From the NCBI GenBank assembly GCA_045612185.1, contig JAZKYO010000100.1, positions 13,606 through 77,605 of the forward strand: 64,000 bases of DNA, given 5' to 3'. A program made the position numbers and the translations under genes. The notes under the pieces were generated by a model, which had not been told where the DNA came from, did not search any database, and saw only the letters and a program-made list of their open reading frames with translations. The DNA comes from Eubacteriales bacterium. GTDB taxonomy: Bacteria > Bacillota > Clostridia > Oscillospirales > CAG-272. This document shows positions 7,234 through 22,471 of this stretch, piece after piece; within the stretch, counting starts at the first letter, position 1, and each line of letters begins with the position of its first letter.

Positions 7234-7237
7234 CGCC

Positions 7238-7272
7238 AAAGGGCCGAGTTAACAAACTCGGCTTCTTTGTTT
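7238..7272 (+). terminator. Intrinsic terminator of the lipid operon
   Basis: GCCGAGTT-AACA-AACTCGGC followed by TTCTTTGTTT. Confidence 0.75.
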
Positions 7273-7304
7273 AAATAATTTCAACACATCTGAGGAGGTA
7301 TAAA

Positions 7305-8147
7305 ATGAAAGACAAAAAATTGACGGCAAAAAAGACAGAAGCTTTCAAGAGTTTTCTCACAAATGAGGAAAAAAGTGCGGCAACAATCGACAAATATATG
7401 CGAGATTTGCGTACTTTCAAGGATTTCATTGCCGAAAAACCCATAAACAAGCAATTGATTATGGAATACAAAAAATTGCTTGGCAACAGCTACGCTGTAG
7501 CAAGCGCCAACTCTATGATAGCCGCTCTTAACTCTTTTTTCAGGTTTTGCGGTTGGTACGAGCTGTGCATAAAGCAATTCCGAGTCCAAAAGCCCGCCTT
7601 CTGCTCCGAAGAAAAGGAGCTGAGCAAGGCTGAATATTTTCGACTTCTTGAAGCTTCAAGAAAAAGCAACAACGAAAGATTGAATTTAATAATCCAAACT
7701 ATCTGCTCAACAGGAATAAGGGTAAGCGAACTTGAATATGTAACGGTAGAAGCCCTTTATCAAGACAAGGTAACCGTAGACTGTAAAAATAAAACCCGTC
7801 ACATTTTCATTATATCGGAGCTTAAAAAACGGCTGATAAAATACGCACAAAAGCATGGCATAACTGCAGGTCCGGTGTTTGTGACAAGAAGCGGCAAACC
7901 TATAAGCAGATCAAACATCTGGCGTGAAATGAAGGGCTTGTGCGAGCAGGCACGTGTTTCGCCCAACAAGGTATTCCCCCATAACCTGAGACATCTGTTC
8001 GCCCGCACCTTTTACAGCATAGAAAAGGACATTGCCAAGTTAGCGGACATTCTCGGACACACCAACATAAACACCACTCGAATTTATATTATTACCACCG
8101 GCGCCGAACACAAAAGAAAGATGGAGAATTTACGGCTGATAAGCTGA
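7305..8147 (+). CDS. Tyrosine site-specific recombinase (putative DNA invertase)
   Basis: Complete catalytic set: TGIRVSEL (R), CKNK (K), HNLRH (HxxR), LGH, RIY (Y); 280 aa with no arm-binding domain. Confidence 0.92.
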   Translation: MKDKKLTAKKTEAFKSFLTNEEKSAATIDKYMRDLRTFKDFIAEKPINKQLIMEYKKLLGNSYAVASANSMIAALNSFFRFCGWYELCIKQFRVQKPAFCSEEKELSKAEYFRLLEASRKSNNERLNLIIQTICSTGIRVSELEYVTVEALYQDKVTVDCKNKTRHIFIISELKKRLIKYAQKHGITAGPVFVTRSGKPISRSNIWREMKGLCEQARVSPNKVFPHNLRHLFARTFYSIEKDIAKLADILGHTNINTTRIYIITTGAEHKRKMENLRLIS

Positions 8148-8159
8148 CCGTCCTCCCAC

Positions 8160-8192
8160 CGCTAAAATATAACATAACGAGAGTTATGTTGT
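8160..8192 (+). repeat. Left inverted repeat L1 (recombination site)
   Basis: CGCTAAAATATAACATAACGAGAGTTATGTTGT matches the reverse complement of 8440-8472 at 31/33 positions. Confidence 0.9.
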
Positions 8193-8202
8193 TTGAGTAC
8201 GG

Positions 8203-8221
8203 AACATAACGAGAGTTATGT
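8203..8221 (+). repeat. Second left site L2 (direct copy of the L1 core)
   Basis: AACATAACGAGAGTTATGT, identical to the L1 core. Confidence 0.85.
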
Positions 8222-8268
8222 ATCAAAAATTCGAGATGCGTACCATAATTTAGCTTTTAGTGGTGTCT

Positions 8269-8297
8269 ATTTTACCATATATAAACAAAAAAATCAA
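8269..8297 (-). promoter_or_regulatory. Sigma-A promoter inside the invertible segment, pointing away from the fibre operon
   Basis: Minus strand TTGATT-17 bp-TAAAAT with extended -10 TGG. Confidence 0.75.
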
Positions 8298-8439
8298 TAG
8301 GTTCGGCAAAATTTCTTCACATTATTTATAAACGTATACCCTTTTTATAAATTTTTTGTAAAAAACAACGAAAGGGGTCTTTTTTTTCGCCATTTTTTAA
8401 AAAGAAAGTGGCTTTTTTTGATATTGACGTTTTAGGGTT

Positions 8440-8472
8440 ACAACATAACTCTCGTTATGTTGTTTTTTAGCG
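8440..8472 (-). repeat. Right inverted repeat R (recombination site)
   Basis: ACAACATAACTCTCGTTATGTTGTTTTTTAGCG; core spacer CTCTCG is the reverse complement of CGAGAG in L1/L2. Confidence 0.9.
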
Positions 8473-8544
8473 TAGGGCAACCTACTATATATTGGTCAAT
8501 TCTCAAAATTTGACGTTACTTGTTATTCCGAGGAGGTGAAGTAA

Positions 8545-9696
8545 TTGTCACAAAAGCCCAACAGCACAAAAGAACGCGTTTTGTTTATCGCCATCATAGT
8601 CGTAGCTGTACTGTTGATTTTAAGCATTTCACTTTTGATTGCCGTTAAAGTCAGAGATTCGTCTGACATTCCCGTGTCGTCCGACAACGTGATCGGTATT
8701 TCGGGAAAAGCTGACCTGCCCGTTGTCAGACTTGGAGACTTTTCTTTAAGCAATCAGTATTTCGATTCCTCTGCCACGGCTGTTTTTCTTACGTCCACAA
8801 ATGAAGATAAGCTGACTTTGTCTTGGTGGACGGGTTACGGCGCGAAAAAAAGTTTTACCGCGACAAATCTTATGCCGGGTGACGTTGTGTCGCAACAGTT
8901 TACCGTTACAGAAAAAAACAACCGCGCTCAAAGCATGCGTTTCGACATCAAAAACATTACCGAAAAAAGCAGCGTGTCTTCGGGAGCAAACGTTAAGCTT
9001 GCCGATATTCTCAACGTTACCGTTGCAGTCGGAGAAAAAGCCCTTTATAACGGACCTTTTTCTCAAGCTCAGGATATCCGTTGCGATCTTCTCCCCGGTG
9101 CGTCGCCTCAGTCGGTTACATACTCGATAACGGTAAGCATGCCCAAGTCGGCAGGTAACGAATACGCCTACAAATCACTTACCGCTGATTTTTCGTGGAC
9201 ACTTGAGGAGCTTCCCTATCCGTCGCCCGGAGAAAACTATTTCCCCGAATATGACGAAACGACGCATGTGCCCGATACCGAGCCGATAGCCCCCCCCGAT
9301 ACTGAGCCTATCGACCCGCCCGACACCGAGCCAATAGAGCCCCCCGATACCGAGCCTATCGATCCGCCCGATACCGAGCCAATTGAGCCCCCCGATACTG
9401 AGCCTATCGACCCGCCCGACACCGAGCCGATTGAGCCGCCGATAACAGTCGACGAACACGAGGACTGTTGCAGCTGTATCATCTGTCACGGACTTGCGGG
9501 GCTGTTCGGTATACACAACGAAACCTGCTTTACGTGTAATATAATCACAGCTATAAGCGGTTCGGAAGAATTTGTTTGTCTGTGTCCCATAGACTGTCTC
9601 TTTCTTCTCATTGTAGTAATTGCGCTTGCGGCAGTCGTTATCAGAATTCTCTGGGTAAAGAGAAAAGTTAAACAAATTACCAAAAATCAAGAATAA
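8545..9696 (+). CDS. TasA/CalY-like domain protein with acidic Pro-rich stalk, Cys-rich segment and C-terminal membrane anchor
   Basis: N-terminal hydrophobic segment, NLMPGD and AGNEY motifs shared with the neighbouring subunits, PDTEPI(D/E)P repeats, C-terminal TM plus basic tail; TTG start with GGAGG. Confidence 0.7.
   Translation: MSQKPNSTKERVLFIAIIVVAVLLILSISLLIAVKVRDSSDIPVSSDNVIGISGKADLPVVRLGDFSLSNQYFDSSATAVFLTSTNEDKLTLSWWTGYGAKKSFTATNLMPGDVVSQQFTVTEKNNRAQSMRFDIKNITEKSSVSSGANVKLADILNVTVAVGEKALYNGPFSQAQDIRCDLLPGASPQSVTYSITVSMPKSAGNEYAYKSLTADFSWTLEELPYPSPGENYFPEYDETTHVPDTEPIAPPDTEPIDPPDTEPIEPPDTEPIDPPDTEPIEPPDTEPIDPPDTEPIEPPITVDEHEDCCSCIICHGLAGLFGIHNETCFTCNIITAISGSEEFVCLCPIDCLFLLIVVIALAAVVIRILWVKRKVKQITKNQE
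9271..9438 (+). repeat. Coding tandem repeat, 7 x 24 bp (PDTEPI[A/D/E]P)
   Basis: Repeat units read directly in DNA and protein. Confidence 0.95.
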
Positions 9697-9708: not shown

Positions 9709-10257
9709 ATGTCAGTGAAAAATTTAAGCATATCGAAAAAGCTGGCAATCAGCGTAGTGCTTCTGACAGTACTGTCACTCTGCCTTTGCGTTACCACCTT
9801 TGCGTTAACCTATTCAATCGTCACGGTAGAAAACAACATATTTTCATCCGGATACGTCAGTATTAACCTCAACGACGGAAAGCCGATTATTGAAGAAGAC
9901 GAATTTATCTTTGAACCCGGTATGACCGTAAAGAAAGATTTCTTTATCAAAAACAACAGCTCGTGGAGCGTTTATTATAAACTTTACTTTGACAACGTTG
10001 ACGGAGAGCTTGCTGACAGCCTGCTCATATCCATATCTGATGGAGATAGAATCCTTTATTCGGGAACGGCGAAAACCCTTGACAAATCGGTGCTCGCCGC
10101 CGATGACGAGCTTGCTATAGGTGAAAAACGCGAGCTTACGGTAACCTTCCATTTCCCAAACAACTTGGGAGACAAATTGCAAAACCAAGAATTGACCTTT
10201 GACCTCTGCGCCGACGCGGTGCAAACCAAGAATAATACTGAAAAATTATTTAATTAG
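9709..10257 (+). CDS. Small TasA/CalY-like SipW-substrate protein
   Basis: Signal peptide ending TTFA; ENNIFSSG, FEPG, YKLYF and DAVQTKNN motifs typical of SipW-cluster proteins. Confidence 0.7.
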   Translation: MSVKNLSISKKLAISVVLLTVLSLCLCVTTFALTYSIVTVENNIFSSGYVSINLNDGKPIIEEDEFIFEPGMTVKKDFFIKNNSSWSVYYKLYFDNVDGELADSLLISISDGDRILYSGTAKTLDKSVLAADDELAIGEKRELTVTFHFPNNLGDKLQNQELTFDLCADAVQTKNNTEKLFN

Positions 10258-10265: not shown

Positions 10266-10988
10266 ATGACAAAGGAAAACAACAAAAAAAGCGTTTGGAG
10301 TATCATAAAGACGGTTTTTGTATGGCTTATCGTAGCCATTACGGTGCTTATTATGATATTCACCATTATCTCGGTCACAACATTTGACCAGAACGACAGA
10401 AATCTGTTCGGATTTAAGTTCTTCATCGTACAAACAGACTCAATGGCAGCAACCGATTTTGATGCGGGTGACGTTATCATTTCAAAAAACGTTGACGTTA
10501 CAAGCCTTAAAGAAGGCGACATCATTACCTTTATCTCTCAAGACCCCACCAACTACGGCGAAACCGTAACCCATAAAATCCGTGAGGTTACAAGAGATAC
10601 AGACGGCACAATAGCCTTCGTTACATACGGTACTACAACTAACGTAAACGACGAAACACTCGCTACTATCGTAGTAGGTAAATACATAGGCAAAATTCCC
10701 AATCTGGGCGCGTTTTTTCTCTTTCTTAAAACAACACCCGGTTATATTCTTTGCGTTCTTGTTCCTTTCCTTATTCTTATATTGTTTCAAGGAATTAACG
10801 TTATTGTTCTGTTCCGCAAATACAAAAAAGAACAGCTTGACGAAATGAACGCGGAAAAAGAAAAGCTTGAGCAAGAGCGTGCAGAAAGCCAGCGTATGAT
10901 GGCGGAGCTTATGGAGCTGAGAGCTCAACTTGCAAAACAGGAAGGCGGCAACACCGATAAACCCGAGGAGCAACCGCCCCAAGAATAA
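10266..10988 (+). CDS. sipW: Signal peptidase I, SipW/S26B (ER-type)
   Basis: Catalytic Ser in QTDSM, GDII, His in VTHKI, N- and C-terminal TM segments; located among SipW-class substrates. Confidence 0.85.
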   Translation: MTKENNKKSVWSIIKTVFVWLIVAITVLIMIFTIISVTTFDQNDRNLFGFKFFIVQTDSMAATDFDAGDVIISKNVDVTSLKEGDIITFISQDPTNYGETVTHKIREVTRDTDGTIAFVTYGTTTNVNDETLATIVVGKYIGKIPNLGAFFLFLKTTPGYILCVLVPFLILILFQGINVIVLFRKYKKEQLDEMNAEKEKLEQERAESQRMMAELMELRAQLAKQEGGNTDKPEEQPPQE

Positions 10989-11027
10989 TTAGTTGTATTG
11001 CGGAAAATCCGCTTTGCATAAAGTTAG
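10989..11027 (+). promoter_or_regulatory. Conserved leader stem-loop, copy 1 (also at 13500-13538 and 14324-14363)
   Basis: TGTA-TT-GCGGA-AAA-TCCGC-TT-TGCA hairpin upstream of the RBS of three subunit genes. Confidence 0.6.
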
Positions 11028-11055
11028 CCACACCACAATAAAGGAGGAAAAGACA

Positions 11056-13401
11056 ATGACTAACAAGAAGACAACCAAGCGCGCGTTGCTCCTTAGCGTT
11101 GTAGCACTTTTGCTTTGCTTCACAATGCTTATGGGTACAACTTACGCATGGTTCACAGACTCTGTTACGAGCACAGGAAACAAGATCGTAGCAGGAACAC
11201 TTGACGTCAAGCTTTTGATGTACAACGCAAACACAGGAGATTATGAGGACATCTCCACAACAACCGATCCCGTTATCGGTGCTGCTATCTTTGGCGAGGG
11301 CACAACAGCAAACGCTGACACCGCAGCTACCCTTTGGGAGCCCGGCAAGACTCAGACTGTATACCTTGCTATCGAGAACGCAGGCTCGCTTGATCTCAAG
11401 TATCAGGTAGCTCTTGAAGTTAAGAACGTTGAGAAGAATCTCACAGACGTTGTTAGCTACGCGATCTCTCCCGATGCAAAGCCCGACTCACAGCCCGTCA
11501 ACGGTTGGGTTGGTAACGGCATTCAGGTTGGCATGGGTATCAACCCCACAGCTTCTCAGAACGTAGCTCTTGCAGCAGGTAACACTCACTACTTCGCACT
11601 CTCCGTACATATGGACGAGGATGCAGGCAATGACTACATGAACGGCTCTATCGAGTTCGACATCAAGGTACTTGCTACTCAGCTTAATGCAGAAAATGAC
11701 AGCTTTGGTCCCGATTATGACGAGGATTCCACATATTATATAGAGTCCGAGTCGGTAGACACCACACAGGAAGTAACTAACAACATTATGTTTACATCTC
11801 ACAGCTCTAACAATTCGGTTAAGCTTGCTGTAAGTAAGGAAATACTCAATAATCTTCCTGCTGAAGTTGAATCCGTAGTTTTCTCTCACTCCGATCCTAA
11901 AGTTGACGAAGTAAACAAGATTATCTCTTACAATCACTTCGAGCTTGAGGATCAGAACGGCGCGGCTATCGACCTTACAAGCAACACTACTCCCATCGTC
12001 GTAACACTTCCCGCACAGGACTTCTTCCCTGCCGGCGAGTACGTTACAGTTAAGCACGACGGTGAAATTATAGGCGTAGGTCTTGTAAACGACGACACAA
12101 CTATCACCTATGAGGCAGTTCACTTCTGCGAGGTAGAGATTAGTGAAGCTGACGCGGCTTTCATTGCCGTTATCGCAAGCAAGCCCTATAACACTCTTCA
12201 GGATGCTATCAACGACGCAAAAGACGGCGACGTTATCAACCTTATGAGAGGCAGAGTGTCCGAAATCAGCGAAACTCTAAACGTTACGACAAACGCCAAC
12301 ATCAACGGTAACGGAAACGTTATCAAGAGAGCCGATGGTGCTGAAAATATAGTTATGTTTAGCGTAAACGACGGAAAGACACTTACTCTTTCCAACATCA
12401 CCCTTGACGGTGGCGCAGTTTGGACAGGTGAAATAAACCCCCACCTTCTTCGCGGAACTGAAAACAGCGGTAAAACAACAGGCGGTTATTTGATTTCTAC
12501 AGCCAAAGGCCATATCGTACTTGAAGAAGGTGCAATTCTTCAGAACAATGACGGTGCAAACGCAGTTTTCCCCGGAACTCGTACCGGTGGCACGCTCACA
12601 ATTAACGGCGGCGAGATTATCAACAATCATTCCGCTGCAGGTGCAATTTGGGGCGGTGGTGCTATCACTCTCAACTCCGGTAAAATAAACGGAAATCACG
12701 GCGGTATCGGCGGTGCTATCCGCGTAGTTACAAACATAGGCACAGTTCTTACTATGAACGGCGGTGAGATGAACCATAATATGTCTGATGCCGTCGGCGG
12801 CGCTATCTGGGCCGGTTCCAGCAGAAGCACCAACGTATACGTTCTCAACGGCGGTGAAATGGCTTACAACTATTCCGCATCAACAGGCGGTGCTATCTAC
12901 GCAGGCTACTACGAAACAGTTAAGATTGGCGGAGATTTCAAGATGCACGATAACAGCTGTTCGGCAAATATCGGCGCTGAAATCAGATTCCACGATCACG
13001 CAAGCCTTATTATGACGGGCGGTGAGGTTTCCAACGAGGCAGATAACGCATTCTACCTCAACAACAACTCCGCATCTATAACGGGCGGTAAGTACGTTGG
13101 TAACCTCGGTTACTCCGGCGGTCTTGGTCTTACCATCGGTGAGGCTGACATTGAAGGTGTTATCGCGTACGATCTTGCCACTAACCACAATACAGCAAAC
13201 CTTGCTACAAGCTTTAACAGCTTCAAGTTTACAGTTAACGAAAGCGCGGCTAACTTCGCACAGTTCAACTTCAAACCCGCCGCAGGTTACGTATACACCG
13301 AAGGCGACGAAGCTAAGCTTGTTTGCATGAACGAGGGTTACGAAACCTATTGGGATGCAGCGGCAGGAGTGTTCAAGCTTCAGACAGTTGCTGAAAACTA
13401 A
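11056..13401 (+). CDS. SipW-dependent TasA/CalY-type subunit with C-terminal beta-helix adhesin-like region
   Basis: SipW-class signal TTYAWFTDS, LWEPG, AGNDY, ATQ; GGAI-repeat beta-helix; AAGGAGG RBS places the start at 11056. Confidence 0.82.
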   Translation: MTNKKTTKRALLLSVVALLLCFTMLMGTTYAWFTDSVTSTGNKIVAGTLDVKLLMYNANTGDYEDISTTTDPVIGAAIFGEGTTANADTAATLWEPGKTQTVYLAIENAGSLDLKYQVALEVKNVEKNLTDVVSYAISPDAKPDSQPVNGWVGNGIQVGMGINPTASQNVALAAGNTHYFALSVHMDEDAGNDYMNGSIEFDIKVLATQLNAENDSFGPDYDEDSTYYIESESVDTTQEVTNNIMFTSHSSNNSVKLAVSKEILNNLPAEVESVVFSHSDPKVDEVNKIISYNHFELEDQNGAAIDLTSNTTPIVVTLPAQDFFPAGEYVTVKHDGEIIGVGLVNDDTTITYEAVHFCEVEISEADAAFIAVIASKPYNTLQDAINDAKDGDVINLMRGRVSEISETLNVTTNANINGNGNVIKRADGAENIVMFSVNDGKTLTLSNITLDGGAVWTGEINPHLLRGTENSGKTTGGYLISTAKGHIVLEEGAILQNNDGANAVFPGTRTGGTLTINGGEIINNHSAAGAIWGGGAITLNSGKINGNHGGIGGAIRVVTNIGTVLTMNGGEMNHNMSDAVGGAIWAGSSRSTNVYVLNGGEMAYNYSASTGGAIYAGYYETVKIGGDFKMHDNSCSANIGAEIRFHDHASLIMTGGEVSNEADNAFYLNNNSASITGGKYVGNLGYSGGLGLTIGEADIEGVIAYDLATNHNTANLATSFNSFKFTVNESAANFAQFNFKPAAGYVYTEGDEAKLVCMNEGYETYWDAAAGVFKLQTVAEN

Positions 13402-13417
13402 TTCATTTTAATATGTC

Positions 13418-13484
13418 CCCAAGCCCCCGGGGCTTGGGCGGCAATCAAAGGGCATAAGCAAGCTCTTATGCTTTTTGATTGCTG
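13418..13484 (+). repeat. Intergenic double stem-loop, copy A (copy B at 16078-16146; degenerate copy near 21506-21565)
   Basis: CCCAAGCCC...GGGCTTGGG then CGGCAATCAAAGGGCATAAG...CTTATGCTTTTTGATTGCTG. Confidence 0.8.
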
Positions 13485-13572
13485 AATGCAAATTACATCG
13501 TTGTACTGCGGAAAATCCGCCTTACATATAAGTTAGTCTACCAAAAAAATTAAAAACATAAGGAGGAAGAAA

Positions 13573-14274
13573 ATGACTAACACAATTTCAACCAAACGCA
13601 CACTTCTTTTTAGTGTAGTGGCTCTGTTCCTTTGCTTTGCTATGCTTCTCGGAACAACCTTTGCGTGGTTCACAGACTCTGTTACGAGCACAGGAAACAA
13701 GATCGTAGCAGGTAACCTCGATGTACAACTTTTGATGTACAACGCAAACACAGGAGATTATGAGGACATCTCCACAGCCACCGATCCCGTAATCGGAGCA
13801 GCTATCTTTGGCACAGGCGAAACAGCTAACGCTGATACTGCCGCTACCCTTTGGGAGCCCGGTAAGACTCAGACTGTTTACCTTGCTATCAAGAACAACG
13901 GTAACCTTGACCTTAAATATCAGGTTATTCTTGTGGTTGCTGACATTGTCAACAGCCTTACAGACGTTGTTAAGTACTCTATCACCCCCGACGCTACCCC
14001 CAACAATCCTGTAAGCCCTTGGAATACAGGTTTCACAGTTAATTCCGGTGCTAATATTGTCAGTGATCCCGCCGACGTTAGCCTTGAAAAGGACGCTATC
14101 CATTACTTTGCTCTCTCGGTTCATATGGACGAGACAGCCGGTAATGAGTACAAGAACGGTTCTATCACTTTTGATATCAACGTACTTGCTACTCAGCTCA
14201 ACTCCGAGCTTGACAGCTTTGATCCCGACTACGACAAGGACGCTGAAAACGTACTTGATACCACCACTCCCTAA
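13573..14274 (+). CDS. SipW-dependent TasA/CalY-type subunit, pilin domain only (likely major subunit)
   Basis: TTFAWFTDS signal motif, LWEPG, AGNEY, ATQ; 233 aa with no passenger domain. Confidence 0.82.
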   Translation: MTNTISTKRTLLFSVVALFLCFAMLLGTTFAWFTDSVTSTGNKIVAGNLDVQLLMYNANTGDYEDISTATDPVIGAAIFGTGETANADTAATLWEPGKTQTVYLAIKNNGNLDLKYQVILVVADIVNSLTDVVKYSITPDATPNNPVSPWNTGFTVNSGANIVSDPADVSLEKDAIHYFALSVHMDETAGNEYKNGSITFDINVLATQLNSELDSFDPDYDKDAENVLDTTTP

Positions 14275-14395
14275 GCAAGAAAAGTTTAGGGCTTAACTGC
14301 TCTACTCTTTTTTAACACTCTATTTAGTTGTATTGCGGGAAATCCGCTTTGCATAAGTTAGTCCATCAAAAATTTTATTTAAGGAGGAAAAGACA

Positions 14396-16063
14396 ATGAC
14401 TAACAAGAAGACAACCAAGCGCGCGTTGCTCCTTAGCGTTGTAGCACTTTTGCTTTGCTTCACAATGCTTATGGGTACAACCTACGCATGGTTCACAGAC
14501 TCTGTTACGAGCACTGGAAACAAGATCGTAGCAGGTGAGCTTGACGTTCAGCTTTTGATGCATGACGGCACAAACTATGTTGACATCTCCAACGTTAACG
14601 ATCCCATAATCGGTGCCGCTATCTTTGGCGAGGGCACAACAGCAAACGCTAACACCGCAGCTACCCTTTGGGAGCCCGGCAAGACCCAGACTGTATATCT
14701 TTCTATCAAGAATGCAGGCACACTTGACCTCAAGTACATGGTTGCTATCGAGGTTACCGATGTAACCAATAACCTTACAGAGGTTATGCAGTACGCTATC
14801 ACTCCCGATGCTAAACCCGACAACGGTCTCGTTACAGGTTGGGTTGCGGACGCAGGCAAGTACGTTGTTAAAGGCACTAACCCCACAGATGCTGTAAACG
14901 TTGTTCTTGGCAAGGGCGCTGAGCACTTCTTCGCTCTTTCCGTTCACATGGACGAGGATGCAGGCAATGACTACATGAACGGTTCTATCACATTCGACAT
15001 CAAGGTACTTGCTACTCAGCTTAACTCTGAGGAAGACAGCTTTGGTAAGGACTACGACAAGAATGCCGTATATCCTCAGGGTACAGCAGTTATCGCTGCC
15101 CAGACTATTACCGGAACAGCTGTTGCAGGCGAAACAGCAAACCTCACTAACGCAGACGGAACATTCACAGTAGAAGCAACTGCAGGTGCAACCGGTGAAG
15201 TTAAGGCTACCATTGCTCCCATAAGCGCAACAAATGAAGCTTTCACCGCTGCAGGTTCAACCGGCAAGAGCCTTGTTTCCTATGACGTTGAGGTTACAGG
15301 TCATGAAGACGGTACTCCCGTTACCTTCAGCTTCTTTGTAGGTGAAGATCTTGCAGATGTAGTAATCTTCCACAAGGGTGCTCCTATGACAGATGGCACA
15401 TACTCTTACTCTGCAAGCACAGGTTACGTAACAGTTACCACAAGTGACTTCTCCCCCTTTGAGGCAGCTTTCTACTATGCTGGCGATCTTCCCGTTGCAA
15501 AGGTTTCGTCCTTGACCGACATTCCCGAGGAACTTGAAGTTGGTTATCTCTTCGAAGCAACCGAAGAGATCCCCGAGCCCGAAGGCGAGAATGGCGAATT
15601 CACCGATGAGCAGATCGAAGCTTTCCTTGAAAAAGTTGCTCCCTACGGTCTCTGGCACGCTGACTTCGTTGTTTCCTTTGATAAGGACGTAGCTGAGGGC
15701 GCTGTTGTTCTCGGCGGTCAGTACGATGAATGGAGCGAGACCTGGGTATGCTTCAACACCTACAGAGACATCAAAGCAGGTGAGCGTCTCCGTTTGCTCG
15801 GTCAGGCTTATGCAGAATTGACTAACAACGAAAACAACAAAATCTACATGAATTACGCTGAGCTTTGCGGCTTTGTTCGTGAATTCAGCTGCGGCGTTGG
15901 TGCTAACGATGAAAGCGTAAGCGGTACAACTGTTACCGTCGAGCTTCGTCTTTACGAGACATATTCTGAGGAAGAGTGTCTTGAAAAGTTCGGTTATTCT
16001 TCTATAAACGAAGAAACAGGCAAATCTGTAGTAATCGCTACATACAACTACACATTCAAGTAA
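14396..16063 (+). CDS. SipW-dependent TasA/CalY-type subunit with C-terminal passenger domains
   Basis: TTYAWFTDS; N-terminal ~220 aa very similar to the 11056 gene, C-terminus unrelated. Confidence 0.82.
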   Translation: MTNKKTTKRALLLSVVALLLCFTMLMGTTYAWFTDSVTSTGNKIVAGELDVQLLMHDGTNYVDISNVNDPIIGAAIFGEGTTANANTAATLWEPGKTQTVYLSIKNAGTLDLKYMVAIEVTDVTNNLTEVMQYAITPDAKPDNGLVTGWVADAGKYVVKGTNPTDAVNVVLGKGAEHFFALSVHMDEDAGNDYMNGSITFDIKVLATQLNSEEDSFGKDYDKNAVYPQGTAVIAAQTITGTAVAGETANLTNADGTFTVEATAGATGEVKATIAPISATNEAFTAAGSTGKSLVSYDVEVTGHEDGTPVTFSFFVGEDLADVVIFHKGAPMTDGTYSYSASTGYVTVTTSDFSPFEAAFYYAGDLPVAKVSSLTDIPEELEVGYLFEATEEIPEPEGENGEFTDEQIEAFLEKVAPYGLWHADFVVSFDKDVAEGAVVLGGQYDEWSETWVCFNTYRDIKAGERLRLLGQAYAELTNNENNKIYMNYAELCGFVREFSCGVGANDESVSGTTVTVELRLYETYSEEECLEKFGYSSINEETGKSVVIATYNYTFK

Positions 16064-16174
16064 TATCTCAAAGCCTACCCAAGCCCCTCGGGGCTTGGGC
16101 GGCAATCAAAGGGCATAAGATTTACACTTATACCTTTTGATTACCGTTAAAATTAATTTTAAAAGGAGATAAAA

Positions 16175-19100
16175 ATGAAAAACACACGCAAGTCATTGTT
16201 TTGCAGCATAATTGCTCTCTTGCTCTGCTTTTCCATGCTTCTCGGTACAACCTACGCTTGGTTTACCGACTCGGTAACCAGTGTAAACAACATTATCAAG
16301 GCAGGTAACCTTGATATCGCTATGTACTGGAACGAGGACCTTACGGGCAGCTGGAAAAACATTGAAAACGAAAACAAGCTTTTCGACTATGACAAATGGG
16401 AACCCGGCTACACCGAGGTAAGATACGTAAAAATCGTTAACGAAGGCAATCTTGCTTTCAGATACGCAATGAGCGTTCTTCCTTTGGGTGAGGTAGGAAT
16501 ACTTGCCAATGTAATCGACGTTTACTACGTTGAAAATCCCACAGCTCCCATAGGCGACAGAACACAGCTGACCGCTCCCGTTGGCACACTTGCTCAGGTT
16601 ATCGCGGGTGAGTTTGTCACAAGTGGAAAAATGGAGAACAAGGGCGACGAGCTTATCGTCGGTATCGCTCTCAAAATGCGCGAGGATGCGGGCAACGAGT
16701 ATCAGGGCAAGTCTGTTGGAGACGCTTTCTCCATTCAGATCGTAGCAACACAGCTTGCGCACGAAAACGACTCCTTTGACAATACGTATGACGAAAACGC
16801 AACCTTCCCCGATGCTCCCGTAAACGAGGGCGTAACGGCTCCCGTTGAAAACGAGAACGGATTGGCTAAGAACGACGTTGCGCTTAACGGCACGAACGCT
16901 TCCGCAACCGTTCCCGCAGGCACCAAGCTTGAGGATGGCGCGTCAAAGCTCACACTTACAGTTACCGAGCTTAACGAAAGCGGCGCAAATATCGCGCTGG
17001 GTGAAAACGATGAGACAAAGTCTCTCGACGTCCATATCGACGGCGTTGCGGCTACAAACGACAAGCCTATAGTTATATCTCTCGGAGCTATTGCTCCCAT
17101 AGGACAGAACAGCGGCAACTTCAAGCTCTATCACGTAGAAAACGGTCAGAGCAACCAAATGACTGCTGTTGCAAGCGTTGCGGAGCTTGTAGCTCACAAC
17201 CAATTCTACTATGACCCCGCAACGGGCGAAGTAACAGTTGCTATGGCAACTTTCTCCGAGGTCGCTCTCGTGGCTGACACCGTAAACGCTTGGGAAGGCG
17301 TAGTTGCGACCGCTTTCGCGCGCGGTACAGGTACTGAAGACGACCCCTACATTATCGCAAACGCTGACCAGTTCGTATATTTAGGCGATCTTATTTCCAA
17401 CTATAATGAGAATTATGGAGACAAATACTACAAGCTCGTTGCCGACATAAACCTCGGCGGTGAGGAAAACGCAAACGAGGGACACATTTTCTATCCCATA
17501 GGTTATCACAAGGTAGGCGGTGAAATCGCGCCTGCAGACCTTGATGACGCTCCCGTTTTCGATTATTTTGATGACGCGGGCGAGGATTATGCGGTTTCTC
17601 ACGTCAGCGCAATAGCTGATAATGGTACAACTTGGTACACCTACGGCGGTGCTTTTCAAGGCACTTTTGACGGAAACGGACACACCATTTCCAACATCTA
17701 TCAGAACACCTGGCAATTGAAGGGTAACTACAGCGGTAATTACTGGAACGCCGCAATGGGTCTGTTCGGCTACGTAAACGGCGGTACTGTAAAGAACCTT
17801 ACGGTTGACAACTTCTCTTCCGACGGCGAGTTTACCCCCACGGGCGTTATCGCGGCTTACGCGGTTAACTCCACCTTTGAAAATATTGCTATCACAAACT
17901 GCAATCCCCGCGTTTACAACACGGGTAACGGCGGTATCGTAGGTATCGGCGGTAATTCAAGTGACCCCGACACTTATGCGCTCACGTTCACCAATATCAC
18001 TATAGACAACACCAACAAGATTTCGGCTCTTTGGGGCTCTTGGGACGTTGCCTGCGGCGGTCTTGTAGGTATGTTCCGCGGTGCGGGTCAAGTATACATG
18101 ACCAACTGCCACGTTGCGGCGCAGATCGACGTTTTCAACGACGTTTGCGGTAACTATCAGTATTATTGGTACCGCTACTCGGGCATGATGATCGGTACAA
18201 ATAAGAACATGATTACCGACACAAACGGTTACACCGTTCCCGAAACAAGCAAGTTCCACGCCGAGAACTGCACGGTTCACTTTGGCGATTGGAACGACTA
18301 CTACTACTGCGAGCTTGTAGCCAACTCTCTCGCATCCTATACTCACGACCACCAGTTCAGCCGTTTGACACAGATTCAGAACGTTTCCGAAATTCAGGAC
18401 GCAAACGGCAATTGGATAACGACCGGCAACTACATTTTGATGAACGGCAAGACTCCTACAGAGACCTGCTACCACATAGTAAACCAAAACGGAACGCTTA
18501 CACAGCATCTTCACACCGACGCGGGTGAGGAGACAGTAAACGGTGAAACTGTTCTTAAGGAAAATAATCAGCGCGTTTACCTTCCCTTTAACCAGCTCTT
18601 CACGGGCTACGGCTGGGGCGTAAAGCACATTCCCGTATATAACGGCGAGGACTACGCGTTTGATGGAATTACCATTCTTGACCGCGAAGTGGCTGATTCT
18701 GTTAAGAAGTTTGAAACCAAGTTTACAGGTGACTTCCTCTACCGTATAGGTAATCAGAATACAGTTTCTCTCGGTTCACTCTTTAAGGAAATAGACAATG
18801 TCAAACCTTCTGTGACAGATTCCGGCGTTTGGGTAACTGTCGAAGCAATTGACGAAAACTCCAACGTCAGCGGTGTATTCACAAAGGATACCGATACTTG
18901 GACTAACGGCACACTCAAATTCAGCGGCACAGGCGTTGTAAAGGTAACTATTCAGGACTATAACTACTGCAAGCCTACCGTTCTCTACCTTGAAGTTGTT
19001 GATGCAACCAACTTGACTTCCGCAACCGGAACAATAACCGGCGGTACGTTCGTATTGCTTTGTGATGTTAATACTTCAACTTATGTAAACTATTGGGACT

Positions 19101-21499
19101 GCACACTTTACGGAAACGGTTTCACATACTCTCTTAACGGTGCGCCCACGGCATACAACTCCAAGCAGGGACACGGTATACTTATTACCAAAAACGCGAC
19201 CCTTGACAACCTTGTAATTGTCGGTGATGTATACAACTCCTACGGAGCTTATACAAATCAGGATTATTACAATTCCGCAGTTGACGTTGTAGGCGACACT
19301 GTAATTCAGAACTGCTATATCTCCGGTTGTTCTGCGCCTATATCCACCCGTGCAAATGCTACGATTACTAATACCACCTTGTACGGTGGAACAGTAGCTA
19401 ACTTGATTATCAAATCAGGCACCGTTACGTTGGAAGACGTAACTACAGCCAATTACGACGACGGCAGATCACTTGTAGGAATGGGTATTGTTATCCACTC
19501 CGAAGCGACAGAATCCGCAAAGCTTATTCTTAACGGAACGCTTACTCAGTACAACTTTATAAGCGAAAGCAAAGTTCCTACCGACACATACGCAAAAAAT
19601 TTGCATACCGCAATGTTTGGTAATTCCTGCAGTAAGTATCATTTTGGAACAAGTCCTAACCGTTACGTTAACGCCGGTATTATCTCTCTGACAGCTTTGT
19701 TTAACGAATATGACATCACGGACAACGCTAATACAGGATACGTAGGAAATGCTGTAACCGTAAGTGGAGTAAACGGCTACGTATATACACAGCCCAATAC
19801 AAGCGGCTCTGTAAACAACAACTGTCCCGAGTATAAGCCCACCACCCAAGGAGCGGTTTCGCCGAGCTATAGCTTTGACCACACTATAAATGAGGTGGCA
19901 AAAACCGATGGTAGCAATGACTATTGCTACGAGGAAAGCGGCACCGTATATATCTCAATGGACGAGGGCGATTCTTTCGATTGGAATACTTCCATTTTGA
20001 CAGTAACCAAGCTTGGCAACAAGCTCGATTATACGGTTACTATGAATGCCACCGACTATACGGGAAAAACTATTACCTTTAACACCGCCGGTGATTATAC
20101 GGTGACGTATACTTATACAGATGGATACAATAGCAAGCTTAATGAAAAAGGCGACGTTACAACTTACGAAATAACGTATACGAAAACCGTTGCAATCAAC
20201 GTATCTATTATCAAACCGACTACCAAGCACGCGGAGTTTACTTTTGGTAGCGCAGGAACAGCCTCCACTTCGACAACTGTTGGGAATAATACCTACATTA
20301 TGCCTAACGTTACCGCGACAAGCTCCACGGTTGGAAGCATAACGGTTAGTGGAACAACAATTTACTATCCTATTGTCAATGCGTATACGTCAGACGGCGC
20401 AACCGCACATTCTTCTTTGAATAGTTGGTATATGTGCTATCCTGTGTTCAAAAACGTTATTTCGATTACAGATTATGAAAGTGCAGGAACAGGAAACGCC
20501 GTCACATATGGCAGTTCTACCACGACTATGCCCAGCGGCTTGTCGTTGACAGCGTATTCTAATTATTTCTCGCAGACAACGGCTCCCAGTGGTGCGGTAA
20601 GCTTTACTTCGGGTGGTGCGGATATCGCTTTTAAGTATCAGGCAAGTAACAGCGCGTCAAGCACACCGACAACGCTGAGTAACGTTTTGATATATGCTTC
20701 TCCTACATTAAGCAACAACGCACGTAACGAGATGTATCTGTTGGTACAGTACAAATATCAGGACAATGCCGGCGCGACTTACTATTACTATGTGGGATAT
20801 CATATGCCACAGACAACGGTGAAAAACGTATGCGTAACCCCCGATACACCTGTAACACTCGCTGACGGAAGCCAAAAGCGCATCGACCAAGTGACATATG
20901 AAGATCAACTTCTGGTTTGGGATTTCTTCAACGGCGAATATACCGTTGTTCCTTCCGCTATCATTTTCGATCACGGATATGATAATCGCAGAGTTCTGAA
21001 CTTGAATTTTGAGAATGGTATCACAGTTAAAGTTATTACAAATCACGGATTTTATCATGCACAAAGCGATTCGTTCGTATTCATTGACGAGGAGAACGTT
21101 GAATCGTATATCGGTTCAGACTTTGTGAGAATGAGCGGAGACAGTTACGATACGGTTAAGCTTATTGGATATTCTGTAACAGAAGAATATACCGGCGCAT
21201 ATTCGATACAGACTGCGTTGCATAACAACTTTATGGTTGAAGGAATGTTCTCGATCACTGAGCCGGAATTTGACGGCTGGTTCGACTACTTCGTAATCGG
21301 TGAGGGAATGAAGTATGACGAGGAAAAAATGCAGGCTGATATTGAAAAGTACGGCTTATACACCTATGAGGAATTTGCCGAGTATGTAACTTATGAACAA
21401 TTCATCGCATTTAACGGACCGTACTTGAAGGTATTGGTAGGTAGAGGCGTTGTTACTTATGAGCAGATTCTCGCACTCATTGATGCCTACGTAAATTAA
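16175..21499 (+). CDS. Large SipW-dependent subunit/adhesin (1774 aa) with GLUG-like/beta-helix region and C-terminal Hint domain
   Basis: TTYAWFTDS, WEPG, GTGTEDDPYII, FQGTFDGNGHTISN; Hint motifs CVTPDTPVTLADG, ITNHGF and AYSIQTALHNNFMVEG. Confidence 0.82.
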   Translation: MKNTRKSLFCSIIALLLCFSMLLGTTYAWFTDSVTSVNNIIKAGNLDIAMYWNEDLTGSWKNIENENKLFDYDKWEPGYTEVRYVKIVNEGNLAFRYAMSVLPLGEVGILANVIDVYYVENPTAPIGDRTQLTAPVGTLAQVIAGEFVTSGKMENKGDELIVGIALKMREDAGNEYQGKSVGDAFSIQIVATQLAHENDSFDNTYDENATFPDAPVNEGVTAPVENENGLAKNDVALNGTNASATVPAGTKLEDGASKLTLTVTELNESGANIALGENDETKSLDVHIDGVAATNDKPIVISLGAIAPIGQNSGNFKLYHVENGQSNQMTAVASVAELVAHNQFYYDPATGEVTVAMATFSEVALVADTVNAWEGVVATAFARGTGTEDDPYIIANADQFVYLGDLISNYNENYGDKYYKLVADINLGGEENANEGHIFYPIGYHKVGGEIAPADLDDAPVFDYFDDAGEDYAVSHVSAIADNGTTWYTYGGAFQGTFDGNGHTISNIYQNTWQLKGNYSGNYWNAAMGLFGYVNGGTVKNLTVDNFSSDGEFTPTGVIAAYAVNSTFENIAITNCNPRVYNTGNGGIVGIGGNSSDPDTYALTFTNITIDNTNKISALWGSWDVACGGLVGMFRGAGQVYMTNCHVAAQIDVFNDVCGNYQYYWYRYSGMMIGTNKNMITDTNGYTVPETSKFHAENCTVHFGDWNDYYYCELVANSLASYTHDHQFSRLTQIQNVSEIQDANGNWITTGNYILMNGKTPTETCYHIVNQNGTLTQHLHTDAGEETVNGETVLKENNQRVYLPFNQLFTGYGWGVKHIPVYNGEDYAFDGITILDREVADSVKKFETKFTGDFLYRIGNQNTVSLGSLFKEIDNVKPSVTDSGVWVTVEAIDENSNVSGVFTKDTDTWTNGTLKFSGTGVVKVTIQDYNYCKPTVLYLEVVDATNLTSATGTITGGTFVLLCDVNTSTYVNYWDCTLYGNGFTYSLNGAPTAYNSKQGHGILITKNATLDNLVIVGDVYNSYGAYTNQDYYNSAVDVVGDTVIQNCYISGCSAPISTRANATITNTTLYGGTVANLIIKSGTVTLEDVTTANYDDGRSLVGMGIVIHSEATESAKLILNGTLTQYNFISESKVPTDTYAKNLHTAMFGNSCSKYHFGTSPNRYVNAGIISLTALFNEYDITDNANTGYVGNAVTVSGVNGYVYTQPNTSGSVNNNCPEYKPTTQGAVSPSYSFDHTINEVAKTDGSNDYCYEESGTVYISMDEGDSFDWNTSILTVTKLGNKLDYTVTMNATDYTGKTITFNTAGDYTVTYTYTDGYNSKLNEKGDVTTYEITYTKTVAINVSIIKPTTKHAEFTFGSAGTASTSTTVGNNTYIMPNVTATSSTVGSITVSGTTIYYPIVNAYTSDGATAHSSLNSWYMCYPVFKNVISITDYESAGTGNAVTYGSSTTTMPSGLSLTAYSNYFSQTTAPSGAVSFTSGGADIAFKYQASNSASSTPTTLSNVLIYASPTLSNNARNEMYLLVQYKYQDNAGATYYYYVGYHMPQTTVKNVCVTPDTPVTLADGSQKRIDQVTYEDQLLVWDFFNGEYTVVPSAIIFDHGYDNRRVLNLNFENGITVKVITNHGFYHAQSDSFVFIDEENVESYIGSDFVRMSGDSYDTVKLIGYSVTEEYTGAYSIQTALHNNFMVEGMFSITEPEFDGWFDYFVIGEGMKYDEEKMQADIEKYGLYTYEEFAEYVTYEQFIAFNGPYLKVLVGRGVVTYEQILALIDAYVN

Positions 21500-21611
21500 A
21501 AAAACTCCCCGCCGCCTTCAGGTGGGAAAATCAAAGGGTGCAAAAAGAGATTTGAACCTTTTGAACACTAAAAATATTAACTCATGTAGATACTCGAAAG
21601 GAGGAAACGCT

Positions 21612-22433: not shown

Positions 22434-22471
22434 AAAGGCGAAGGAGATTTTTCCTTCGCCTTTACTTATTT
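22434..22471 (+). terminator. Terminator of the fibre operon
   Basis: AAAGGCGAAGGA-GATTTT-TCCTTCGCCTTT hairpin. Confidence 0.75.

What the first reader, a model, noticed from the sequence alone, without database searches (positions are those of the whole stretch)
7305..8472. Invertible promoter switch (tyrosine invertase + 33-bp IRs) upstream of a SipW/TasA-type fibre operon, captured OFF
Seen: just after the recombinase stop lies L1 (8160-8192), which matches the reverse complement of R (8440-8472) at 31/33 bp. Each site has the dif-like form AACATAA-CGAGAG-TTATGTT, with palindromic arms and an asymmetric 6-bp spacer that has opposite orientation in L and R. Between them a TTGATT-17-TAAAAT extended -10 promoter (8297-8269) points away from the operon, and a weak hairpin plus T7 (8389-8419) faces it. 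I found no other good promoter before the first gene at 8545. Established: inverted tyrosine-recombinase sites give inversion, as in the fimS-type and C. difficile switches. Inference: inversion turns on the 14-kb operon, giving phase-variable TasA-like pili or biofilm fibres. I know of no description of this for SipW systems.
Basis: partly seen in the sequence, partly recalled or inferred. Interest (0 to 1): 0.88.

Follow-up and report, generated by a model that had tools for sequence, protein, structure and literature searches.

The report
Invertible promoter switch for TasA-like fibres
A small DNA segment carrying a promoter sits between inverted recombinase sites next to its own recombinase gene and can flip to turn a 14-kb operon for TasA-like surface fibres on or off in an uncultured gut Clostridia bacterium; the same kind of switch cassette is common across this bacterial class.

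Summary
A 280-aa Xer-like tyrosine recombinase (7305-8147) is followed by three identical 18-nt cores, ACATAA-CGAGAG-TTATGT. Two are direct (L1 8172-8189, L2 8204-8221) and one is inverted (R 8443-8460). They are the only such sites in the genome.

The segment between them carries an extended -10 promoter on the minus strand (8297-8269) and two plus-strand hairpins with T-runs. The window is therefore OFF for the operon.

Contigs from two metagenome DNA runs, 97-99% identical to the window, carry the inverted junctions exactly at the cores: one L1xR and one L2xR.

The cassette is a large family. Among 146 unique relatives, 143 have a site just after the gene. Of 162 further sites, 158 share the exact spacer of their own locus, although 73 different spacers occur. 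Among 127 complete switches the promoter faces the cargo in 32 and away in 77.

The cargo here is a SipW-type peptidase plus TasA-like proteins.

This is a well-supported new member of a known kind, the inverton. A 2025 survey group may be the same family. I found no paper linking SipW/TasA to an invertible promoter.

The parts
7305..8147 (+). Xer-like tyrosine recombinase, 280 aa, the presumed invertase
   Evidence: PF00589 E 1.4e-22 and PF02899. The best NCBIfam hits, XerA/XerD/XerC, are all below their cut-offs. R139, K163, H226, R229, H252 and Y261 are invariant in 143 unique relatives. The closest solved structures are XerA/XerC-like 4a8e, 5hxy and XerD 1a0p.
8172..8189 (+). Left core site L1: ACATAA-CGAGAG-TTATGT
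   Evidence: It is the crossover point of the X1 contig joint 8171|8462.
8204..8221 (+). Left core site L2, identical to L1 and in the same orientation
   Evidence: It is the crossover point of the X2 contig joint 8222|8443.
8443..8460 (-). Right core site R, the same core in inverted orientation
8222..8442 (.). Inner invertible segment (L2xR, 221 bp). The L1xR inversion flips 8190-8442 and carries L2 to the right side.
   Evidence: Joints. Homologous segments have a median length of 243 bp.
8269..8297 (-). Switch promoter TTGATT-17-TG-G-TAAAAT, facing the recombinase gene (OFF)
   Evidence: It aligns with the conserved TTGACw-17-TGnTATAAT of relatives.
8338..8387 (+). Hairpin 1 followed by T8 (terminator-like)
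   Evidence: It aligns with the conserved hairpin block of relatives.
8389..8419 (+). Hairpin 2 followed by T7 (terminator-like)
8545..9696 (+). First operon gene: 383 aa, with N- and C-terminal hydrophobic stretches, PDTEPI repeats and a Cys-rich stretch. No family match.
   Evidence: Homologues lie in two other switch-linked SipW loci (L035, L053).
9709..10257 (+). TasA-like protein, 182 aa
   Evidence: PF12389 30.7 bits. It has 959 homologues, one named 'TasA family protein' by NCBI. The model has pLDDT 85.5 and its top PDB match is the TasA fibre 8aur_A, E 9.9e-6, TMq 0.45.
10266..10988 (+). SipW-type signal peptidase I, 240 aa
   Evidence: TIGR02228 58.8 bits (cut-off 51.85). NF046067 SipW E 3e-21 but below its cut-off.
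10993..21499 (+). Four genes (10993-13401, 13573-14274, 14396-16063, 16175-21499) for proteins of 802, 233, 555 and 1774 aa with SipW-dependent-type signal peptides
   Evidence: TIGR04088 scores of 25.1, 27.1, 22.4 and 19.2 bits (cut-off 19). PF12389 matches cover the N-terminal parts only.
21522..22424 (+). Last operon gene, 300 aa, Pro-rich C-terminal part
   Evidence: One search gives only weak hits, below the cut-offs.
22434..22463 (+). Terminator-like hairpin (13-bp stem) closing the operon

Best explanation
This is a self-contained phase-variation cassette.

The Xer-like tyrosine recombinase encoded at 7305-8147 binds the symmetric arms (ACATAA / TTATGT) of three core sites. It exchanges strands within the asymmetric 6-bp spacer CGAGAG. 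R is inverted relative to L1 and L2, so recombination inverts the ~220-250-bp segment between them.

The segment carries one outward-firing extended -10 promoter near one end and terminator-like hairpins behind it. In the orientation captured in the window the promoter fires leftwards, through L2 and L1 and antisense into the 3' end of the recombinase gene. The hairpins face the operon, so the 13.9-kb SipW/TasA-type operon (8545-22424) is OFF.

After L2xR or L1xR inversion the promoter lies about 140-175 nt upstream of the first gene and reads through R into the operon, which is ON. The population would then be mixed for TasA-like surface fibres.

Shown:
- the sites;
- their exact spacer identity here and in relatives;
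- both inverted junctions in natural near-identical populations;
- both orientations among related species;
- the identity of the cargo.

Inferred:
- that the adjacent recombinase is the catalyst;
- that the consensus promoter is the active one and the operon has no other;
- that the proteins form fibres.
For: 1. Sites. Three exact cores are the only ones in the genome.

2. Direct inversion products.
- X1 record 4 (553 nt, depth 4.3) is the reverse complement of 8171-8216 joined to 8462-8968.
- X2 record 12 (790 nt, depth 5.95) is the reverse complement of 8222-8338 joined to 8443-9115. This places the promoter facing the operon.
- Both joints are scored 'opposite strands', with 22 and 19 letters fitting either side. 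That stretch is the core.

3. Family conservation.
- 143 of 146 unique loci have a site right after the recombinase gene.
- 158 of 162 further arm-defined sites within 1 kb carry exactly the spacer of their own locus (142 inverted, 16 direct).
- 73 distinct spacers occur and none is palindromic.
- Only 1 arm-defined site lies in 288,876 nt upstream.

4. Orientation polymorphism.
- MAFFT had to flip 10 of 28 segments.
- Of 127 complete switches, 32 are ON, 77 OFF and 18 ambiguous.
- Sister species L018 and L021 are collinear on both flanks, but the 290-nt switch aligns reversed.

5. Promoter geometry is conserved. The -10 ends a median of 39 nt (range 15-69) from the segment end. The first real gene downstream is co-oriented in 20 of 20 loci.

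6. No plus-strand promoter-like site lies between R and the first gene or in the operon's intergenic gaps.

7. The recombinase's catalytic residues are invariant.

8. Cargo identity rests.
Against: - No raw reads were available. The inversion evidence is two low-depth assembled contigs (depth 4.3 and 5.95) from two runs of one study, laid at a 90% threshold.
- No run showed both orientations side by side, so switching within one clone is not shown.
- Promoter and terminator calls are consensus matches only, and the organism is uncultured.
- My crude terminator scan did not resolve a conserved direction for the hairpin. It was opposite to the promoter in 65 of 109 loci and on the same strand in 47 of 109.
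- In 18 of 127 switches the orientation could not be called.
- RNA-library contigs cover the operon, but they are contigs and cannot show a start site or a level.
- The PF12389 matches of the large proteins cover only their N-terminal 45-90 residues, so a TasA fold is supported only for the 182-aa protein, and modestly (TMq 0.45).
Confidence: 0.85

Rival explanations
1. The switch mainly regulates the recombinase itself. In the captured orientation the promoter makes an antisense RNA over the 3' end of the recombinase gene. Control of the operon would be secondary, or come from another, non-consensus promoter.
For: - In the OFF state the promoter points at the recombinase gene, whose stop is about 115 nt from the expected start (coordinates).
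- The recombinase gene lies 5-138 bp from the first site in 79 of 80 loci, so this geometry is conserved.
- The OFF:ON ratio of 77:32 would fit orientation-dependent feedback.
Against: - This does not exclude operon control. The cargo is co-oriented in 20 of 20 loci.
- The promoter always sits at the end of the segment firing outward, as expected for a cargo switch.
- No alternative plus-strand promoter was found.
Confidence: 0.1
2. The inverted junctions are assembly or library chimeras formed at an inverted repeat, and the locus is a fixed relic that no longer inverts in this organism.
For: - Only two contigs, of depth 4-6, both from one study.
- Inverted repeats can give fold-back chimeras.
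- The reference assembly shows only one orientation.
Against: - The shared core (19-22 nt) is shorter than typical assembly words, as I recall for Logan's contigs. A contig therefore needs real reads across the joint.
- The two runs give two different joints, each exactly at a core site. Their flanks are 97-99% identical to the window over 46-117 nt on one side and 507-673 nt on the other.
- All three cores are perfect and the recombinase is intact.
- Related species are fixed in either orientation.
Confidence: 0.04
3. The sites are a Xer/dif-type chromosome- or plasmid-dimer resolution system, or the ends of a mobile element moved by the recombinase.
For: - The core resembles dif in form: palindromic arms ending in ...CATAA / TTATG... 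around a 6-bp spacer. The dif sequence is recalled, not from a call.
- The best profile and structure matches of the enzyme are Xer proteins.
Against: - Scores are far below the XerA/XerC/XerD equivalog cut-offs (134.9 vs 220, 118.4 vs 329.6, 111 vs 335).
- The sites come as inverted pairs 200-350 bp apart enclosing only a non-coding promoter segment, not the recombinase gene.
- Genomes carry up to 6 matches to the recombinase (G207), and the sampled paralogous copies mostly have different spacers.
- Flanks are collinear between species while only the segment flips.
Confidence: 0.01

Closest known systems
E. coli fimS switch with FimB/FimE (recalled from established knowledge)
   Same: A tyrosine recombinase is encoded next to a ~300-bp invertible promoter segment that turns a fibre (fimbrial) operon on or off. 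The geometry here also allows orientation to feed back on recombinase expression.
   Different: - The FimB/FimE profiles score 28 and 25 bits against cut-offs of 221-222.
- There is one recombinase, not two.
- The sites are Xer/dif-like 6-6-6 cores with perfectly symmetric arms.
- The host is Gram-positive and the cargo is SipW/TasA-type, not chaperone-usher.
Clostridioides difficile RecV-dependent switches (flgB, cwpV, pdcB and others). I saw listings and abstracts of PMC7446863, PMC5903667 and 10.1101/2021.10.30.466581.
   Same: Clostridia, a tyrosine recombinase, and short invertible regulatory segments upstream of surface or motility operons.
   Different: - RecV acts in trans on several dispersed switches. 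Here each switch has its own adjacent recombinase and its own spacer.
- Some RecV switches work after transcription initiation (abstract of PMC7446863).
- I could not compare sequences because no RecV sequence was available in a tool.
'Inverton group 139' with 'invertase group 35' in a defined human gut community (PMC11892184; passages read)
   Same: - 33 invertons, 32 from Clostridia, nearly all with a tyrosine recombinase nearby.
- The coordinates given imply IRs of 14-26 nt and inner segments of 206-228 bp, like those here.
- Read-supported flipping was reported in Intestinimonas butyriciproducens and Clostridium sp. D5.
   Different: - Identity with this family is not established.
- The passages I read do not mention SipW/TasA, a variable spacer, or extra sites.
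Xer/dif systems with a single recombinase (XerS, XerH, archaeal XerA). Solved relatives are 4a8e, 5hxy and 5jjv. I saw the abstracts of PMC1914069 and PMC2958812.
   Same: One Xer-type recombinase is encoded next to its own dif-like site with a 6-bp spacer. This is the closest sequence and structure family.
   Different: - Here the sites are in inverted pairs and give inversion of a promoter, not dimer resolution.
- There are many paralogous cassettes per genome.
- The equivalog cut-offs are not reached.
Mycoplasma agalactiae Xer1/vpma inversions (PMC2268961; listing and abstract only)
   Same: A Xer-like recombinase was recruited for phase variation of surface proteins by site-specific inversion.
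   Different: That system shuffles one promoter among several lipoprotein genes. Here there is a simple ON/OFF promoter flip.
Bacillus subtilis tapA-sipW-tasA and Clostridium perfringens sipW-bsaA (recalled); TasA fibre structure 8aur
   Same: A SipW-type peptidase is encoded with TasA-like secreted proteins that carry the cognate signal peptide. The fold of the 182-aa protein is TasA-like.
   Different: - As I recall, those operons are controlled by transcription factors (SinR/Spo0A, temperature), not by DNA inversion.
- This operon is much larger, with giant proteins of 802, 555 and 1774 aa.

Membership tests
Tyrosine site-specific recombinases (PF00589) | Catalytic domain with the R-K-H-R-H/W-Y residues | tested here: met
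   PF00589 80.8 bits against a cut-off of 27.1. R139, K163 (and K161), H226, R229, H252 and Y261 are invariant in 143 unique family members.
XerC / XerD / XerA equivalogs | Score above the curated NCBIfam cut-off | tested here: not met
   NF040815 134.9 vs 220; TIGR02225 118.4 vs 329.6; TIGR02224 111 vs 335.15. The protein is Xer-like, not a Xer orthologue.
FimB/FimE-type DNA invertases | Score above the NCBIfam cut-off for NF007370 / NF007371 | tested here: not met
   28 and 25.1 bits against cut-offs of 221 and 222.
Invertible promoter switch (inverton) | Inverted repeats flanking a short non-coding segment beside a recombinase gene | tested here: met
   The arrangement is conserved in 127 of 146 unique relatives, with a further 13 cut by a contig end.
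Invertible promoter switch (inverton) | Both orientations exist in natural populations | tested here: met
   L1xR and L2xR junction contigs occur in runs X1 and X2. Relatives show 32 ON and 77 OFF, and the L018/L021 pair differs by an inversion. Coexistence of both orientations in one sample was not shown.
Invertible promoter switch (inverton) | A promoter inside the segment whose orientation sets expression of the neighbouring genes | tested here: inconclusive
   A consensus promoter is present and conserved in position. No start-site or expression data could be obtained, because the runs are held only as contigs.
SipW/TasA-type secretion and fibre system | SipW-type (archaeal/ER-type) signal peptidase I | tested here: met
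   TIGR02228 58.8 bits against a cut-off of 51.85. The Bacillus SipW equivalog NF046067 scores 75.8 against 190, which is not met.
SipW/TasA-type secretion and fibre system | Substrates with the cognate SipW-type signal peptide and a TasA/camelysin-like fold | tested here: met
   TIGR04088 is at or above its cut-off of 19 in 4 proteins. PF12389 is above its cut-off in 3 proteins. The 182-aa protein model matches the TasA fibre 8aur_A, E 9.9e-6, TMq 0.45. The fold of the large proteins was not tested.
SipW/TasA-type secretion and fibre system | Assembly into extracellular fibres | not testable with these tools
   This needs microscopy or biochemistry.
Inverton group 139 / invertase group 35 (PMC11892184) | Shared IR motif and recombinase cluster | not testable with these tools
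   The motif and the lists are in supplementary files, which are closed. Only the dimensions and the taxa agree.

The most novel reading that the evidence does not exclude
The window holds one member of a class-wide family of autonomous, Xer-derived invertase cassettes.

- Pairing specificity would be set by a freely evolving 6-bp spacer, with 73 variants seen, plus a few outer-arm bases that track the recombinase clade. Several switches could then work independently in one genome.
- Extra core copies would make four-state switches in which a site migrates from one side to the other.
- The OFF-state promoter, antisense to the recombinase gene, would give orientation-dependent feedback that biases populations towards OFF.

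If so, TasA-like fibres and many other surface structures of uncultured gut Clostridia would be phase-variable through one portable module.
Probability: 0.3. Interest if true: 0.75.

Novelty: new member of a known kind. Interest (0 to 1): 0.6.

Why it matters
**Phase variation of TasA-like fibres.** Phase variation by promoter inversion is classic in Enterobacteria, Bacteroides and C. difficile. It has hardly been described for the uncultured Oscillospirales-type Clostridia that dominate ruminant and human guts. My searches found no paper linking it to SipW/TasA fibres. If the switch works as read, adhesion or biofilm fibres of these bacteria are expressed in only part of each population. That bears on colonisation, on phage and immune escape, and on how metatranscriptomes and assemblies of these taxa are read.

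**A compact set of recombination modules.** The family-level picture is one small recombinase, an 18-nt core, and exact spacer matching within each locus but 73 spacers overall. This offers natural, compact and possibly mutually independent recombination modules that could be tested as genetic tools.

Tried and rejected
**Extra site as a marker of orientation.** I supposed that 2L+1R would always be OFF and 1L+2R always ON. This was rejected. All four combinations occur (7, 5, 5 and 5 loci). L018 and L021 are both 1L+2R but have opposite orientation.

**Selection for distinct spacers within a genome.** In 9 of 11 genomes with several sampled cassettes all spacers differ. G010 and G146 each have two cassettes with the same spacer. 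With 73 spacers in circulation, distinctness is expected by chance, so I make no claim of selection.

**Contig breaks at the switch as a sign of mixed orientation.** 13 of 80 loci end within 450 bp downstream of the gene, against 6 of 80 within 450 bp upstream. This is only a weak hint.

**Conserved direction of the hairpin or terminator.** My scan gave 65 of 109 on the strand opposite to the promoter and 47 of 109 on the same strand. The direction is not resolved and the hairpin may be bidirectional.

**RNA evidence.**
- RNA-library contigs (X3, X4) lie on 8450-10800.
- No RNA contig lies on 7068-8407.
- Contigs cannot show a start site or a level.

**Low shares of sampled words.** The runs hold at most 0.33 of the sampled words. 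I do not use them to name a habitat beyond what was laid.

**Sequence search of PDB.** It found nothing meaningful for the 182-aa and 233-aa proteins.

**Literature.**
- One search was badly posed (generic taxon words) and gave nothing useful.
- (motif words) returned only lox and unrelated papers.
- Jiang et al. 2019 could not be read. What I say of it comes from passages of PMC11892184 and from recall.

**Rejected readings.** The Xer/dif, mobile-element and chimera readings are treated under rivals.

**Not done.**
- A scan of metagenome contigs for more copies of this species' switch.
- A test of the loose end in X1 at 8171.
- Complex prediction.
Full report
**Observation**

- 8160-8192 matches the reverse complement of 8440-8472 at 31 of 33 positions. 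The repeat finder extends the pair to 38 nt at 89%.
- The core is ACATAA-CGAGAG-TTATGT: symmetric arms around an asymmetric 6-bp spacer.
- It occurs three times with no mismatch: L1 at 8172-8189 and L2 at 8204-8221 in one orientation, R at 8443-8460 in the other. None of 100 shuffles gave three matches even with 3 mismatches allowed.
- These are the only such sites in the 2.62-Mb, 92.9%-complete assembly, both with this spacer and with any spacer.

**Anatomy**

- The gene at 7305-8147 encodes a 280-aa tyrosine recombinase: PF00589 at E 1.4e-22 plus an N-terminal SAM-like domain.
- Its best profile matches are XerA, XerD and XerC, all far below their curated cut-offs. The FimB/FimE profiles barely register.
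- The closest solved structures are archaeal XerA/XerC-like proteins and XerD.
- R139, K163, H226, R229, H252 and Y261 are invariant in 143 unique relatives.
- Between L2 and R lie 221 bp at 32% G+C, against 45% for the window.
- On the minus strand sits TTGATT-17-TAAAAT with a TG extension (8297-8269). The scan found no promoter-like site on the plus strand anywhere in 7000-9000.
- On the plus strand two hairpins are each followed by a T-run: 8338-8378 with T8 and 8389-8412 with T7.
- The first gene starts at 8545 behind GAGGAGG.
- Eight co-oriented genes follow to 22424, with gaps of 4-171 bp.
- A 13-bp-stem terminator-like hairpin lies at 22434-22463.
- Inside the operon the number of promoter-like sites equals the chance expectation (18 found, 18.4 expected). 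None lies in an intergenic gap on the plus strand. Two weak terminator-like hairpins sit in the gaps after the 802-aa and 233-aa genes.

**Cargo**

- The 240-aa protein passes the archaeal/ER-type signal peptidase I model (58.8 bits against a cut-off of 51.85) and matches Bacillus SipW at E 3e-21.
- Four downstream proteins pass the model for SipW-dependent signal peptides. Several match the N-terminal part of camelysin/TasA, PF12389.
- The 182-aa protein has 959 homologues, one labelled 'TasA family protein [Acutalibacteraceae bacterium]' by NCBI.
- Its AlphaFold model (pLDDT 85.5) finds the cryo-EM TasA fibre 8aur_A as best PDB match: E 9.9e-6, TMq 0.45. An archaeal filament, 7pnb, appears lower down.
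One caveat: only the small protein's fold was tested, and the match is modest.

**A family of cassettes**

Distribution:
- Homologues of the recombinase at E <= 1e-40 occur in 70 of 201 sampled genomes of the same family. They were not found in the two other genomes of the same genus.
- At E <= 1e-70 they occur in 96 of 401 sampled genomes of the class, in 58 of 217 genera.
- Named records are all uncultured Clostridia, Eubacteriales, Oscillospiraceae or Acutalibacteraceae MAGs from ruminant and human guts.

Sites: I pooled 159 loci and removed duplicates, leaving 146.
- 143 have an arm-defined site (ACATAA-N6-TTATGT, at most 1 arm mismatch) just after the recombinase gene.
- Of 162 further arm-defined sites in the next 1 kb, 158 carry exactly the same spacer as the first site of their own locus: 142 inverted and 16 direct. 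Four are unrelated.
- Across loci there are 73 different spacers, none palindromic.
- The 288,876 nt upstream, genes included, hold a single arm-defined site.
- This locus-by-locus matching of a freely varying spacer is what strand exchange by a tyrosine recombinase requires (established knowledge). It is the strongest comparative sign that the sites are working partners.

Incomplete loci: of the 19 without a complete pair, 13 stop at a contig end 53-308 bp after the gene, 3 have an L site only despite longer sequence, and 3 have none.

Outer arms: the three bases outside each arm differ between recombinase clades. They read ACA...TGT near 60-70% identity and ACC...GGT near 50%.

**Orientation**

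- Aligning 28 inner segments, MAFFT had to reverse 10 of them.
- The conserved blocks are a promoter close to TTGACw-17-TGnTATAAT and a hairpin (GCCTTTCG...CGAAAGG with a T-run).
- The window's TTGATT-17-TGGTAAAAT aligns with that promoter. It sits on the strand facing the recombinase.
- Scoring promoters on both strands of 127 complete, unique switches gave 77 facing the recombinase (OFF), 32 facing the cargo (ON) and 18 undecided.
- The -10 ends a median of 39 nt (range 15-69) from the end of the segment, so the promoter always fires outward through a site.
- In 20 of 20 relatives with longer sequence the first real gene beyond the switch is co-oriented with the recombinase.
- The sister species L018 and L021 share the spacer TGGGTA. 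They are collinear over 2.4 kb upstream (86% identity) and 1.2 kb downstream (75%). The 290-nt switch aligns in reverse at 76%.

**Direct evidence in this organism's population**

Only Logan contigs were available. Laid on 6800-10800, two DNA runs of one study each gave one strand-changing joint exactly at the cores.
- X1 record 4 (553 nt, depth 4.3) is the reverse complement of 8171-8216 joined to 8462-8968. This is the L1xR product.
- X2 record 12 (790 nt, depth 5.95) is the reverse complement of 8222-8338 joined to 8443-9115. This is the L2xR product, and it puts the promoter in front of the operon.
- The letters that fit both sides (22 and 19) are the core.
- The flanks differ from the window at 0-7 positions per piece.
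- So both left sites are used, and the ON form exists.
- I did not see both orientations in one run, and these are low-depth contigs.
- L1xR moves L2 to the right side. Consistent with this, relatives with three sites occur in all four states: 2L+1R OFF 7 and ON 5, 1L+2R OFF 5 and ON 5.
- About a fifth of switches (26 of 127) have three or more sites. These are usually 31-34 bp apart (19 of 29 spacings). What the extra site is for is unexplained.

**Cargo across the family**

- Homologues of the window's operon proteins follow the switch in 8 of 20 relatives, with a SipW homologue in 6. L034 carries a similar peptidase-plus-DUF5305 set by Pfam.
- Other cargos include dockerin or Big_3 giant proteins, CBM plus glycoside hydrolase, a type IV pilin-like protein, a sugar transferase locus, an SPFH protein, and a TrwB-like ATPase with a kinase.
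- Cassette and cargo are therefore modular. The relative with the most similar operon (L046) has a recombinase only 57% identical, another spacer, and is ON.

**Mechanism**

I read this as a one-enzyme inverton.
- The recombinase binds the symmetric arms.
- The spacer gives direction.
- Inverted sites give inversion.
- The outward promoter then reads either into the operon or antisense into the recombinase gene. The hairpins behind it insulate the operon from read-through.
- From the coordinates the ON leader would be about 143 nt (L2xR) or 175 nt (L1xR). This is inferred.
- The antisense arrangement in OFF is conserved. It could give orientation-dependent feedback and explain the OFF excess, but that is only an idea.

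**Comparison with what is known**

- The kind is classic: fimS; Bacteroides invertible promoters; C. difficile RecV switches (abstracts seen).
- A 2025 survey of a defined gut community reports 'inverton group 139': 33 invertons, 32 from Clostridia, nearly all beside a tyrosine recombinase of 'invertase group 35'. The coordinates it prints imply IRs of 14-26 nt and inner segments of 206-228 bp. Flipping was seen in culture (PMC11892184, passages read).
- This may well be the same family. The motif is in a closed supplement, so I could not test it.
- No paper in the library holds SipW together with invertible promoter or tyrosine recombinase. None of the 15 papers with phase variation plus TasA/SipW terms describes an inversion switch, judged from titles and abstracts. 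The motif words found nothing relevant.

**Verdict**

This is a real, well-supported invertible promoter switch, captured OFF, that most likely gates a SipW/TasA-type fibre operon. It is a new member of a known kind, and part of a very large cassette family in gut Clostridia that deserves description in its own right.

Noticed in passing
window 16175-21499: The 1774-aa SipW-substrate-like protein has a weak match to an intein N-terminal splicing region at residues 1553-1627 (TIGR01445, E 0.001, 20 bits against a cut-off of 24.5). It may be chance or a Hint-like domain.
   Followed up: no
window 8545-9696: The first operon gene encodes a 383-aa protein with hydrophobic stretches at both ends, about eight PDTEPI(A/D/E)P repeats and a Cys-rich stretch. 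It matches no family. It sits where tapA sits in the Bacillus operon (recalled). Homologues occur in two other switch-linked SipW loci.
   Followed up: partly
window 8171 and 8460, run X1 (table 7): One contig maps from 8171 rightwards but has at least 255 unlike letters before it. Another piece ends at 8460 with 8 unlike letters. This is probably another organism's cassette with the same CGAGAG core, which 13 of 143 loci share.
   Followed up: no
L020 and L029: These show a variant switch architecture in which the conserved hairpin and the promoter point the same way. L020 also has a longer, G+C-rich left part (360-nt segment).
   Followed up: no
L022 and L067 (both G070:C51); G207: Two cassettes with different spacers lie about 13 kb apart on one contig. 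One genome (G207) has 6 matches to the recombinase. Cassettes can therefore be numerous and clustered.
   Followed up: partly
L006/L054 (G010) and L072/L073 (G146): In each of these genomes two cassettes share the same spacer, which would permit recombination between cassettes. G010 has 5% contamination, so a strain mixture is possible.
   Followed up: no
Loci: The three bases outside each arm co-vary with the recombinase clade: ACA...TGT in the 60-70% identity clade and ACC...GGT in the ~50% clade. This suggests extended arm recognition.
   Followed up: partly
window 8440-8463 and 8472-8485: On the plus strand the R site itself forms a hairpin followed by T6, and a second small hairpin follows. 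Both were flagged as terminator-like. They would lie in the leader of the ON transcript and might attenuate it.
   Followed up: no
window 22961-22989 (minus strand): A near-consensus extended -10 promoter-like site (TTGACT-17-TATAAT with TG, 11 of 12) lies in the 1.1-kb gap between the operon terminator and the Lon protease gene at 23520. It points towards the operon's end. No obvious gene is assigned to it.
   Followed up: no
window 4980-7233: Upstream of the recombinase lie a DegV-family gene, a 376-aa GNAT-domain gene and a 75-aa phosphopantetheine-binding (ACP-like) gene. These are followed by a terminator-like hairpin at 7241-7264. This leaves only about 40 bp for the recombinase's own promoter.
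   Followed up: no
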